Shown one piece after another: positions 26,001 through 29,000 of a stretch of 64,000 nucleotides of DNA. Each line of letters begins with the position of its first letter. The stretch's first letter is position 1. Origin of the DNA: an uncultured Trueperaceae bacterium (GTDB lineage Bacteria > Deinococcota > Deinococci > Deinococcales > Trueperaceae); assembly GCA_963727505.1 (NCBI GenBank), contig CAVSGP010000005.1:192001-256000 (forward strand), in the 5' to 3' direction. The position numbers are program-made.

Positions 26001-29000
26001 CGCTGTTGAAGGCGATCGCCAACGCCACGGCCAGCACGAGCATCACCGGCACCTGCACCACCAGGATGGTCAGGGTGTTGCCGAGCGCCTTCCAGAAGAA
26101 GGGGTCGTGGATGAGCCGGTCCCAGTTGAACGACCAGCTGAAGGTCCAGGGGCGCCGCCGGGTGTTGACGAACGAAAGATAGAACGAGTACGCGATCGGG
26201 TAGATCCAGAACATCGCGAACAGCGCGAAGAACGGGCTGAGGAACAGATAGGGCGTGAGGGGACTGCGGCGGCGCCGCGAACGGTGCGTTGCCCCGGGGG
26301 GTGCGGCCGCGCGGCCGCTGCCGAGGCTCACGGGGCGCTCCGCTGGCGTGACGGGAGCGAGGCGTGGGTCGCTGGCGGGCGCGTGGACATGGACGCTGCG
26401 TTCATGGTCGGCGGGCTCGACGGGGCCGGTGGGTCCGGCGCGCGCGTGGTACGCGCGCCGGACCCCGTCCGGTTACTTCGCGACCGGCAGGCCCGTGGCC
26501 TGCGAGATCTGCCGGGCCGCGGTATCGAGCGCGGTCTTGGCGTCGGGGTACTTGCCGTCGAGGTAGTCGTTGACGACGGCGATCATGACGTTGCGCGCTT
26601 CCTGGAAGAACTGCGTCCCCACCACGGGCGGGACGTCGCCCAGGGTGCCGATGATGGTCTTCCAGATCGGTTGGTTGTCGAAGTAGGGCACGCCCTGGTC
26701 GAGCCGCGGGTCGTTCATGACGGACAGCAGGGAGGGCGTCAGGCCGTAGTTGAACAGGATGTTGATCTGGTTGTCCTTGTTGGCCAGCGCGTTGGTGACG
26801 AAGTCGTAGGCCAGCTTGGGGTTCTTCGACGAGCTCGGGATGGCCAGCGCGGAGCCGCCGAGGTTGGAGGCGCGCACGCCGCCCGGCGTCAGCGCCGGGG
26901 TGATGTAGACGCCCCACTTGCCGCTCTGGTCGGGCGCCTCGGACTCGATGGTGCCGGCGTACCAGGAGCCGAAGAAGGCGGACGCTTCCTTGCTCTGCTG
27001 GAAGAACTGGATCTGGTTGCCCCAGTCGCCGGGCCACAGGATGCCGGCGTCCCACAACTGCTTCATCGTGGACATGGCGGTGACGCAGCCGGGCTGGTTG
27101 ACCGTGACGTTGTTGCCGGCGTTGTCGAAGTAGAAGCAGCCTGCCTGGTTGGCGAGCATGCGGAACCACTCGTCGTCCGTGCCCTTGGCGATGGTCCCCA
27201 TCTTGACGTCGCCGTTGAAGAGGGTGACGAGCTTCTTGCCCTCGGTGGCGAAGTCGTCCCAGGTGTTGATGGAGGCGGGGTCGATGCCGGCCTGCTGGTA
27301 GAGGTCACGGCGGTAGAAGATCGCCGTGGGGCCGGAGTCGTAAGGGATGGCGTAGACGGCGCCGTCCTGGGTGAGCTCCGCCCACTTGAAGGCTGGGAAG
27401 TCCGGCTTGAGGCTGTCGGCGCCGAGCGTGCGCAGGTCGGTGAAGCAATCGGGGAACTGCGCCCAGAACACCTGGGCCTCGTTGTTCTCGACCAGGTACA
27501 CGTCGGGCATGTCGAGCCCGCCGGCGGCGCAGCCGGCCAGGCCGCGATCGTAGACGTTCTGGTTGCCGAGGTCCTCGACGTTCACCTGGACGCCGGGGTG
27601 CATCTGCTGGAAGCTGGCGACGGTGCTCTCCAGCGCCGCCTTGTTGATGTCCCACACCCAGACGTCGAGGGTCTGGGCGCTGACCAGGCCGGTCAGCACG
27701 AGCGTGGCGAGAACGAGCGTGATCCTTCTCAACCGATCCACCTCCCTCGGTTGGCACGCGTCCCGACGCCGGTAGCCCGTCCGTCGTGGGTCGACGATCG
27801 GGGTGTTGTGGCGCAGATCGTGCCAACCGTGACGGCGCCGTCACCCCCTCCGGGTGGTCGCTGGGACGGGTGGGATCTGAAACCGAGGTCCCCCGCCCAG
27901 GACGGTTCCGGTGCCGACTGCGCAGGTCGCGCGCTGTCTCGACAGTAGCCACGCCCTTGCCGGCCGTCAAAGGCGATTGTCCCGAGGGTCGGGCCGGGCG
28001 CCGACGGCCCCTCTGGAGGGGCTCGGTGGAGGTTCTGGCTGGAGGTTCTGGCTGGAGGTTCTGGGTGGAGGTTGAGCTAGCTGGGTTGTTCGAGCAGCGC
28101 GTCGACCAGGGCGCCGCGCAGCAGGCCCCGGTAGACGCCGTCGATGACGAGGTCCTCGGCGGCCACCTCGACGGTGGGGTAGCGCGGGTTGTGGGGGCGC
28201 AAGGCGTAGCGCCCCGGATCGAGCCGGTCGAGGTACTTGAGGGTGACGTCGCTCCCCTCGACGCGCACGGCGCAGATCTCACCGCTGCGCTGCGGCGGGC
28301 GCTTGTCGAACAGCACCACGTCGCCGTCCTGGATGAGGTCGGCCATGGAATCGCCCTCGACGCGCAGCGCGAAGCTGCCATCTTGCAGGCCGCTCAGCGG
28401 GAGGTAGCCCTCGGCCTCGGCCAGCGCCTCGCTGAGCGCGCCGGCGGGGATGCCACCGAGGACCGGCACGCCGGTGGCGCCCGCGGGCAGTGCCAGGTGG
28501 GGGGAGCGGCCGCGGCCGCGGCTCTCGAACACCAGGAAGCCCTTGCGATCGAGGGCTTCAAGGTGCTGCTTGAGCGAGACGTAGTGGACGCCCATCGAGC
28601 GAGCGAACGCCGACAGCTCCGGCATGGTGCCGGTGCGTCGGTGGTGGTCGCGCAGGCGCTCGTACACCTTGCGTTGCGTAGGAGAGAGGTCTTCCTTCAC
28701 GTTACCTTAAATGGTAAGGTGAAGATGTGGGCGCTGTCAACGGCGGGCACGTCGCGCGCGTCCGCCGGCCCGCCGGAGTCGGGCCCGTTCCCCCGACCCC
28801 GACCGGGTGCGACCGAACCCGCACGGGGCACGAAAACGAGGGAGGAATACCGTGCAGCACGTGAGAGAAGGCTTGAGAACCGGCCCCGGAGGGGTAGACA
28901 AGGCACCCCCTGTACTGCTATAGTTTCTGTAGTTGGTTCGCTCTCTCCGCGTCCTCAAGCATGGACGCGTTTTTCCACATGTGACAACGAACCGTTCGAG

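What a model noticed while it worked through the whole genome (the two positions that open the first line are those of the whole stretch)
28077..28740. New LexA (SOS) box CCTTA-N5-TAAGG of Trueperaceae, on lexA, the stand-alone recA and uvrB
The palindrome CCTTA-N5-TAAGG overlaps the -10 box of lexA (C5:220705-220719) and lies in the promoter of recA g00140 (C2:80720-80734), with a one-mismatch copy at uvrB (C9:446311-446325). It is the family-wide LexA operator, an undescribed SOS motif. Of the two recA genes only g00140 carries it.
Evidence so far: The genome has exactly 2 perfect sites, at lexA and recA. 16 of 16 lexA upstream regions (with this genome) keep it with at most 1 mismatch behind a TTGAC -35 box. 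Perfect sites in 23 of 24 other Trueperaceae, up to 16 per genome, reversed control 0 in 17 of 24. Among 50 loci read, sites lie before lexA, recA, uvrA, an error-prone dnaE and alkZ-like genes in Trueperaceae and before no DNA repair gene in the 9 loci from other families.
(Added by a program. Inside this text positions count along the whole contig: contig position 192,001 is position 1 of the stretch shown here. "Call 12" and the like, gene names such as g00115 and contig names such as C1 are that model's own, and its searches are not shown. The text may have been shortened before it was handed on; [...] marks where a part breaks off. The agent that wrote the report below was given it as the finding of a first reader that could run no searches.)

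Follow-up and report, generated by a model that had tools for sequence, protein, structure and literature searches.

The report
New SOS box replacing Deinococcus switch
A short DNA palindrome in front of the DNA-damage repressor gene lexA and the repair gene recA is very probably the repressor's binding site, and it suggests that this family of Deinococcus relatives lost the usual Deinococcus radiation switch and runs DNA repair with a classical SOS response instead.

Summary
Confirmed. CCTTA-N5-TAAGG (full form TACCTTA-N5-TAAGGTA) lies on the lexA -10 box. The only other perfect copy in the genome precedes the stand-alone recA (0.009 expected). A matrix trained on lexA promoters of other genera finds the box before 18 of 19 stand-alone recA genes and 0 of 17 cinA-linked copies. 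It is not invariant: 51 of 60 lexA promoters have at most one mismatch, and in genus g23 it shifts symmetrically to CCGTA-N5-TACGG at recA and other targets. Other boxed genes: imuY, dnaE2, a second uvrA, a PA0069-type radical-SAM gene, photolyase and Rad52/Sak4-like genes. uvrB is boxed in only 8-9 of 30 genomes. The two TetR-gene sites are a different operator. New here: no full-length IrrE or DdrO in 102 Trueperaceae genomes, while DdrO is present in the four other Deinococcota families. This LexA nests among lexA-imuY-dnaE2 cassette repressors (AU p=0.023), which carry related boxes. Best reading: a cassette LexA took over recA control after IrrE/DdrO loss. Binding and induction are untested. 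Not found in ten paper searches or in earlier scan notes; regulon databases could not be searched.

The parts
28077..28700 (-). lexA, 207 aa: winged-helix DNA-binding domain plus S24 autoprotease; the only S24 gene found in the genome
   Evidence: PF01726 29 bits (cut-off 23.7) and PF00717 80.4 bits; TIGR00498 87 bits, below its cut-off of 110.95; one PF00717 match in the genome; model pLDDT 87.7 with LexA structures as top fold hits
28703..28721 (.). Predicted LexA operator, 19 bp, TACCTTA-N5-TAAGGT(A/G); core CCTTA-N5-TAAGG at 28705-28719, ending 4 nt before the start codon
28711..28716 (-). -10 hexamer TACCAT of the lexA promoter, inside the operator
   Evidence: the core starts 13-15 nt after the -35 hexamer in 53 of 60 lexA promoters
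28735..28740 (-). -35 hexamer TTGACA of the lexA promoter
28440..28445 (-). Ala86-Gly87 cleavage dipeptide
   Evidence: invariant in 38 of 38 aligned homologues; aligns to the E. coli LexA AG site
28347..28349 (-). catalytic Ser118
   Evidence: invariant in 38 of 38; alignment to E. coli LexA
28236..28238 (-). catalytic Lys155
   Evidence: invariant in 38 of 38; alignment to E. coli LexA
29015..29728 (+). Divergent CRP/Fnr-family regulator with its own promoter-like site (28895-28924), about 295 nt from the operator; a conserved neighbour, not shown to be a target here
   Evidence: same neighbour in several genera

Best explanation
The palindrome is the operator of the Trueperaceae LexA. A LexA dimer sits on TACCTTA-N5-TAAGGTA, covering or just behind the -10 box, and represses lexA and a damage-inducible second recA. 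Depending on the lineage it also represses uvrB, a second uvrA, imuY/dnaE2, a radical-SAM repair gene, photolyase and annealing proteins. After DNA damage, RecA made from the unboxed cinA-recA operon forms filaments on single-stranded DNA, LexA cleaves itself at Ala86-Gly87, and the boxed genes are induced. Trueperaceae lack IrrE/DdrO, the switch that induces recA in Deinococcus. This LexA descends from the repressor of the lexA-imuY-dnaE2 mutagenesis cassette and took over that job. Shown here: position, conservation, target set, family restriction, intact catalytic residues, no IrrE/DdrO found, tree position. Inferred: binding, cleavage, induction, constitutive expression of cinA-recA, and the order of events.
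For: Two perfect sites in 3.26 Mb, at lexA and recA. A matrix trained on 35 lexA sites, without genera g1, g18 and g23, ranks this genome's lexA (32.7) and recA (28.5) sites first, above all shuffled-matrix tops (max 19.4). It scores 16 or more before 18 of 19 stand-alone recA genes and at most 5.3 before 17 of 17 cinA-linked ones; one search adds one case of each kind, both fitting. The exact 17-mer is in 52 of 81 Trueperaceae genomes against 8 of 184 other Deinococcota, each of those with a single site. In genus g23 a pattern allowing either form returned 9 sites in 4 of 5 genomes, all with at least one CCGTA/TACGG arm and none with the CCTTA...TAAGG form; they lie at recA, a radical-SAM gene and a small membrane-peptide gene. 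Cassette LexAs carry related palindromes in their own promoters. In some genomes the box stands behind the -10, so it is separable from the promoter. DdrO: only HTH-length weak hits in 8 of 102 Trueperaceae, but 72-81% full-length hits in 5 of 5 genomes of three other families. IrrE: weak partial hits in 2 of 102. Both queries were verified against solved structures. Tree.
Against: The regulon in this genome is tiny: lexA, recA and probably uvrB. Of 43 sites in five single-contig genomes only 18 precede a gene with a repair or SOS annotation. The protein is below the TIGR00498 cut-off. The g23 shift is incomplete: 3 of 7 lexA promoters keep a CCTTA left arm, 1 of 7 lacks the TACGG arm, and the G061 recA site is CCTCA-N5-TGAGG. 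The helix change seen in g23 (His39 to Thr) also occurs in G029, whose promoter keeps CTTA...TAAGG, so it does not explain the shift alone. The g18 variant CCTTC-N5-GAAGG was found at lexA but not at recA. The trees are quick searches, the AU group was named after a first tree had been seen, and kin genomes are not independent.
Confidence: 0.88

Rival explanations
1. LexA binds the box, but it is a minor circuit (autoregulation, one recA copy, mutagenesis). The main damage response of Trueperaceae runs through another regulator or is constitutive, so this LexA is not a functional replacement of IrrE/DdrO.
For: Only 2-3 sites in this genome; core uvrA unboxed in 22 of 22 and uvrB unboxed in 21-22 of 30; an unboxed, almost identical recA exists (972 of 987 nt); one 98%-complete genome (G085) has neither lexA nor the box.
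Against: The stand-alone recA is boxed in 18 of 19 cases across many genera; several genomes carry 8-26 perfect sites, covering recombination, excision, photorepair and translesion genes. This rival is compatible with the binding claim and disputes only its weight.
Confidence: 0.25
2. The palindrome is bound by another regulator, such as the divergently encoded CRP/Fnr-family protein, an XRE protein or a TetR.
For: A CRP-family gene is divergent from lexA in many genera and has a box of its own in G055 and G121; a TetR_C_1 operator CCTTAC-N3-GTAAGG mimics the core; the genome has 8 XRE-type domains.
Against: Related palindromes follow every LexA paralogue checked, including cassettes in other families with no CRP neighbour; the box persists where CRP is not next to lexA (G121); TetR-type sites differ by a fixed C/G next to the arms and occur at TetR/DUF4386 pairs; the one near-complete genome without lexA lacks the box (G085).
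Confidence: 0.06
3. The motif is a promoter element (an extended -10 context of leaderless promoters), not an operator.
For: The -10 hexamer is embedded in the box at lexA, recA and uvrB; a matrix hit of 21 bits falls on the -10 of a yceD-like housekeeping promoter.
Against: Only 2 perfect copies per 3.26 Mb, both at SOS genes; the box lies 25-49 nt behind the -35 hexamer, past the -10, in 7 of 60 lexA promoters; both arms change symmetrically in variants, which a one-directional promoter element does not require.
Confidence: 0.03

Closest known systems
Canonical RecA/LexA SOS regulons with clade-specific boxes (E. coli LexA, PDB 3jso; Thermotoga LexA, PDB 3k2z; take-over by a diverged LexA paralogue as described in PMC8565304)
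   Same: wHTH plus S24 architecture, Ala-Gly/Ser/Lys intact, a palindrome over the own promoter and over recA, targets in repair and translesion synthesis; PMC8565304 (passages seen) describes duplication, motif divergence and re-capture of the regulon.
   Different: Different box; recognition-helix region VHYVSLKQH, one residue shorter than E. coli's; below the TIGR00498 cut-off; here the displaced regulator appears to be a non-LexA system (IrrE/DdrO).
[quoted passage not shown]
   Same: The nearest relatives of this LexA head imuY-dnaE2 cassettes in Trueperaceae and two other families; imuY and dnaE2 are directly boxed in G055, G107 and G003.
   Different: Per those reviews the Deinococcus cassette LexA controls its own operon and not recA. 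This lexA stands outside a cassette and boxes recA. The Deinococcus cassette LexAs and LexA1 form a separate clade with another palindrome, GCTAAG-N4-CTTAGC.
IrrE/DdrO radiation-desiccation response of Deinococcus (PMC8072749)
   Same: Repressor cleavage induces recA and repair genes through a palindrome near the transcription start; two recA copies occur in D. deserti too.
   Different: No IrrE or DdrO orthologue found in 102 Trueperaceae; different repressor fold, motif and trigger (RecA filament, not zinc).
Bacteroidetes SOS box CTAA-N5-TTAG (PMC8565304)
   Same: AT-rich palindrome with a 5-nt spacer before recA and translesion genes; one base per arm away from CTTA-N5-TAAG.
   Different: Bound by a phage-repressor-like, non-canonical LexA; no evidence of kinship; the Trueperaceae box has conserved outer ACC/GGT flanks.
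Magnetococcus MC-1 LexA box CCT-N10-AGG (motif recalled, from no call; the protein is listed as validated in Table S2 of PMC8565304)
   Same: Outer CCT...AGG arms; the cassette box of family f5 found here, CCTGT-N6-ACAGG, has that spacing.
   Different: The Trueperaceae box is CCT-N9-AGG with fixed inner TA/TA; a 6-nt spacer gives 0 perfect sites in this genome; kinship of the proteins not tested.

Membership tests
LexA repressor / SOS regulon | N-terminal winged helix (PF01726) and C-terminal S24 domain (PF00717) | tested here: met
   both above Pfam cut-offs; fold hits are LexA structures
LexA repressor / SOS regulon | Ala-Gly cleavage site and Ser/Lys dyad | tested here: met
   A86, G87, S118, K155 invariant in 38 of 38
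LexA repressor / SOS regulon | Score above the curated LexA equivalog model TIGR00498 | tested here: not met
   87 bits against 110.95: a divergent LexA clade
LexA repressor / SOS regulon | Palindrome in its own promoter shared with recA and repair genes | tested here: met
LexA repressor / SOS regulon | Sequence-specific binding of LexA to the box | not testable with these tools
   needs a gel shift or ChIP
LexA repressor / SOS regulon | RecA-stimulated autocleavage and damage induction | not testable with these tools
   RNA runs hold at most 0.08 of the words and are contigs only
lexA-imuY-dnaE2 cassette repressor | lexA is first gene of an operon with imuY and dnaE2 | tested here: not met
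   no imuY hit and only a 28% dnaE hit in this genome; no such ORF follows lexA
lexA-imuY-dnaE2 cassette repressor | Common descent with cassette LexAs | tested here: met
   nested among cassette LexAs; holding 15 cassette rows together without it is rejected, p-AU 0.023 (quick tree, group named)
IrrE/DdrO radiation-desiccation regulon | Full-length DdrO repressor | tested here: not met
   8 of 102 genomes give only HTH-length hits; control 5 of 5 full length in other families
IrrE/DdrO radiation-desiccation regulon | IrrE metallopeptidase | tested here: not met
   2 of 102 weak partial hits; PF06114 absent from G000, G055, G063, G121 and present in 2 of 2 f2 genomes
IrrE/DdrO radiation-desiccation regulon | RDRM motif before recA | not tested
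   no tool-given RDRM sequence was used
Bacteroidetes non-canonical LexA (CTAA-N5-TTAG) | Phage-repressor-like DNA-binding domain and CTAA/TTAG arms | tested here: not met
   PF01726 winged helix; matrix position gives T 0.98 and T 0.77 in the arm where that box has T, A

The most novel reading that the evidence does not exclude
Trueperaceae, a family that includes the radiation-resistant Truepera, lost the IrrE/DdrO switch that the other four Deinococcota families keep, and rebuilt a global SOS regulon by promoting the repressor of a mobile mutagenesis cassette. It did so with a duplicated, boxed recA beside an unboxed sensor copy, and the operator is still drifting in concert across target promoters in single genera. 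The regulon exposes unstudied damage genes, among them a single-pass membrane peptide that could be the missing division inhibitor.
Probability: 0.6. Interest if true: 0.75.

Novelty: new variant of a known kind. Interest (0 to 1): 0.64.

Why it matters
Reviews of Deinococcus state that recA induction there is SOS-independent and that the targets of the D. radiodurans LexA proteins are unknown (PMC6300522, PMC8072749). This gives a testable LexA box and regulon in the same phylum, in a family that seems to have swapped one damage switch for another. It also gives candidate operators for the cassette LexAs of Thermus-like and Deinococcus-like genomes, a natural series of operator variants for studying how a repressor and its sites change together, and a list of new damage-induced gene candidates. 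New LexA boxes are reported regularly, so the box alone is incremental; the replacement of IrrE/DdrO is the part a specialist would not expect.

Tried and rejected
'Motif-negative genera lack lexA' was rejected: g10, g18 and g23 have the gene and variant boxes. The two C4 one-mismatch sites were rejected as LexA targets: they lie between a TetR_C_1 gene and a DUF4386 gene, and TetR genes carry CCTTAC-N3-GTAAGG sites in G013, G016 and G121 too. The 21-bit hits at C3:40242 and C10:40763 are the -10 region of a yceD-like promoter (gene name is my reading of the ORF) and are treated as false. A regulon-wide shift in g18 was not found: 12 listed matches at 10 loci, promoter-type only at lexA. Core uvrA, ruvC and the Rad52-like gene of this genome have no box. 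An HMM of nine small boxed membrane peptides found no homologue in this genome, and the peptides align poorly, so they are not shown to be one family. The ESM Atlas gave no hit for the recurrent 163-aa boxed protein and a primase-like lead (PF04104 in 13% of one cluster; PriX at 0.84) for the 126-aa one. RNA runs were too distant to lay. No complex prediction was run. The careful tree did not finish; quick trees were used.

Full report
Observation. The window holds lexA at 28077-28700 on the minus strand. CCTTAAATGGTAAGG sits at 28705-28719, the only match in the window, on the -10 hexamer of a TTGACA-18-TACCAT promoter. The laid genome (3.26 Mb, 97% complete) has 2 perfect sites, at lexA and at C2:80720 before recA, against 0.009 expected, and 0 perfect sites at the 12 other spacer lengths. 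Sites with one mismatch are not enriched. The three one-mismatch sites are at uvrB (overlapping its -10, just before the ATG) and, twice, between a TetR_C_1 gene and a DUF4386 gene.

The protein. It has PF01726 and PF00717 above cut-off but scores 87 on TIGR00498 against a cut-off of 110.95. It is the only S24 protein found in the genome. A86-G87, S118 and K155 are invariant in 38 aligned homologues. The model (pLDDT 87.7) matches LexA structures best. It is a divergent but intact LexA.

Family survey. Record titles place the relatives in Trueperaceae. Perfect cores occur in 105 of 128 family genomes, up to 26 each; the reversed control hits 37 of 128, at most 5 times. The lexA orthologue is found in 121 of 128. 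The exact 17-mer ACCTTA-N5-TAAGGT is in 52 of 81 family genomes and in 8 of 184 genomes of the four other families. Each of those 8 has a single site, 4 of them are TetR-type, and the control hits 14. I read 62 lexA loci and dropped 2 at contig edges. Of the other 60, from 27 genera, 31 have a perfect core, 20 one mismatch, 6 two, 2 three and 1 four; in 53 the core starts 13-15 nt after the -35 hexamer and in 7 it lies 25-49 nt behind. The consensus is TACCTTA-N5-TAAGGTA with an AT-rich spacer.

Independent test on recA. A matrix built from 35 lexA sites, leaving out genera g1, g18 and g23, ranks this genome's lexA (32.7) and recA (28.5) first; ten column-shuffled matrices top out at 10.4-19.4 and uvrB scores 15.3. 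I fetched 42 recA loci by family search, not by motif, and dropped 6 as partial. The 19 stand-alone copies score 16.3-35.8 in 18 cases and 10.7 in one (G127); the 17 copies behind cinA score at most 5.3, also with 1450-nt windows. One search adds a boxed stand-alone recA (G101), an unboxed cinA-linked one (G085, which lacks lexA), and three unboxed recA genes from other families. The two-recA design, one boxed and one not, is therefore general.

Other targets. uvrB: 6 of 30 directly boxed, mostly close kin, 2 more behind a small ORF and 1 doubtful. A second uvrA, present in 8 of 30 genomes, is boxed in 7; the core uvrA in 0 of 22. In five single-contig genomes all 43 sites at up to one mismatch were read (plus lexA loci fetched earlier); 18 precede lexA, recA, imuY, the second uvrA, uvrB, photolyase, SRAP or Rad52/Erf- and Sak4-like genes. 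The rest precede toxin-antitoxin, CRP, glyoxalase, TetR or unknown ORFs, or look like background. Further loci show an error-prone DnaE, a PA0069-family radical-SAM gene, an HhH-GPD glycosylase and ruvC. Recurrent unknowns are a 135-185-aa protein (3 genomes), a GemA-like protein (3), a primase-like 126-aa protein (2) and small membrane peptides.

Variants. Genera without perfect sites keep lexA and carry variants at the same position: CCTTA-N5-TGAGG in g10 and g34, CCTTC-N5-GAAGG in g18, forms with a TACGG arm in g23, CCCAA-N5-TTGGG in G100. In g23 a neutral pattern returned 9 sites in 4 of 5 genomes, all with at least one CCGTA/TACGG arm, at recA, the radical-SAM gene and a membrane-peptide gene before ligA. 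In g10 the recA site matches the lexA variant (G017). Against this: the g18 variant was seen only at lexA, and the His-to-Thr change in the g23 helix also occurs in G029 without the shift.

What it replaces. Two reviews say that Deinococcus LexA proteins do not control recA, that IrrE and DdrO do, and that close IrrE/DdrO homologues occur in Meiothermus, Calidithermus, Marinithermus and Oceanithermus but not Thermus; neither mentions Truepera (PMC6300522, passages; PMC8072749, part 2 of 6 and passages). With DdrO and IrrE taken from an f2 genome and verified against solved structures, 102 Trueperaceae genomes give only HTH-length DdrO hits in 8 and weak partial IrrE hits in 2. DdrO is found full length at 72-81% in 5 of 5 genomes from families f3, f4 and f5. 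Loss in Trueperaceae is the simplest reading (inference; no species tree was built).

Where the LexA came from. Many family genomes have a second LexA at about 55% identity. In 12 of the 20 such loci fetched, imuY- and/or dnaE2-type ORFs were called downstream; 5 loci were cut on the wrong side, and the ORF walk was unclear or showed other genes in 3. The best relatives outside the family (40-47%) also head such cassettes, and Thermus plasmids encode them. Each has its own palindrome: ACCCTY-N7-RAGGGT in the Trueperaceae cassettes, CCTGT-N6-ACAGG in f5, and the same CCTTA-N5-TAAGG at one of four LexAs of G233. In trees the main LexA clade (SH-aLRT 97-98) lies inside a Trueperaceae group with cassette LexAs, within a larger group with f3 and f5 cassette LexAs; D. 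radiodurans LexA1 and the f2 cassette LexAs are apart. Holding 15 cassette LexAs together without the main clade is rejected (p-AU 0.023). That test used 37 rows, left out rows whose context was not verified, and its group was named.

Mechanism. A LexA dimer occludes the -10 box; RecA from the unboxed operon senses single-stranded DNA and triggers self-cleavage; the boxed recA and repair genes are induced. The biochemistry follows from established LexA knowledge and was not shown here.

Novelty. Ten paper searches found no description; the literal motif spellings gave 0 papers. PMC8565304 (passages and one supplement part) has no Truepera entry; its reference table lists D. radiodurans LexA with PMID 20134056, which is not held and of which I saw nothing. 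PMC4148983 (passages) names Truepera only as radiation resistant. The other listed papers were seen as search listings only. Subscription journals, RegPrecise, CollecTF and unread supplements may hold a prior prediction. Earlier scan notes show no finding on this box. Names for f2 (Deinococcus-like) and f5 (Thermus/Meiothermus-like) are my inference.

Verdict. A real and very probably functional LexA operator (0.88), a new variant of a known kind of system, made more interesting by the apparent replacement of IrrE/DdrO. Interest 0.64.

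Noticed in passing
G000 C2:79.5-80.7 kb and C9:351.2-352.4 kb (L002, L001): The two recA genes share 972 of 987 aligned bases, and the core ends 231 of 310 codons in G; earlier scan notes already cover this as gene conversion with strong skew.
   Followed up: partly
G000 C3:38-43 kb and C10:38-43 kb: Two diverged copies of the same housekeeping block (mutM-, hisA-, yceD- and fabH-like ORFs; names are my reading) lie on different contigs, which suggests that one contig comes from a related strain.
   Followed up: no
G000 C4:843445 and 843478 (L008:4446, 4479); L021, L024, L302: A TetR_C_1 operator CCTTAC-N3-GTAAGG, at TetR/DUF4386 pairs, mimics the LexA core and gives false hits.
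   Followed up: yes
L330-L337, L342, L343, L458: Cassette LexAs of family f5 and the LexA-like gene on Thermus plasmid pVV8 have CCTGT-N6-ACAGG-type palindromes before the gene: candidate operator for Thermus-type mutagenesis cassettes.
   Followed up: partly
L344-L346: lexA-imuY-dnaE2 cassettes of family f2 carry GCTAAG-N4-CTTAGC behind the promoter in 3 of 3 loci: candidate operator for the Deinococcus cassette LexA.
   Followed up: partly
L469:1548-1814, L471:1184-1429, L291:1533-1808, L300:1529-1771, L017:1282-1488, L029:1528-1719: Small ORFs with one hydrophobic stretch follow strong boxes in several genera, twice ahead of ligA and twice ahead of dnaE; candidate SOS division inhibitors, homology not shown.
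   Followed up: partly
L282:1480-1968, L273:1632-2033, L310:943-1494: A boxed protein family of 135-185 aa in three genera; the L282 member had no Pfam, NCBIfam, PHROG or Atlas match.
   Followed up: partly
window 29015-29728; L271, L292: A CRP/Fnr-family gene is divergent from lexA in many genera and has a box nearby in G055 and G121; it may be a regulon member in some lineages.
   Followed up: no
window 28027-28073 and 29839-29915: Short intergenic tandem repeats (13-nt unit x3.6 right after lexA; 15-nt unit x4.6 after the CRP gene), both built on a TGGAG word.
   Followed up: no
L430 (G025:C1 near 3.5459 Mb) and L116: In G025 the site before the second uvrA resembles the palindrome of that genome's second LexA (CCCCA-N5-TAGGG) rather than the main box, hinting at targets split between two LexAs.
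   Followed up: no
L409 (G100) and L425 (G031): The uvrB matches contain one in-frame stop each; probably the natural end or an assembly error, not examined.
   Followed up: no
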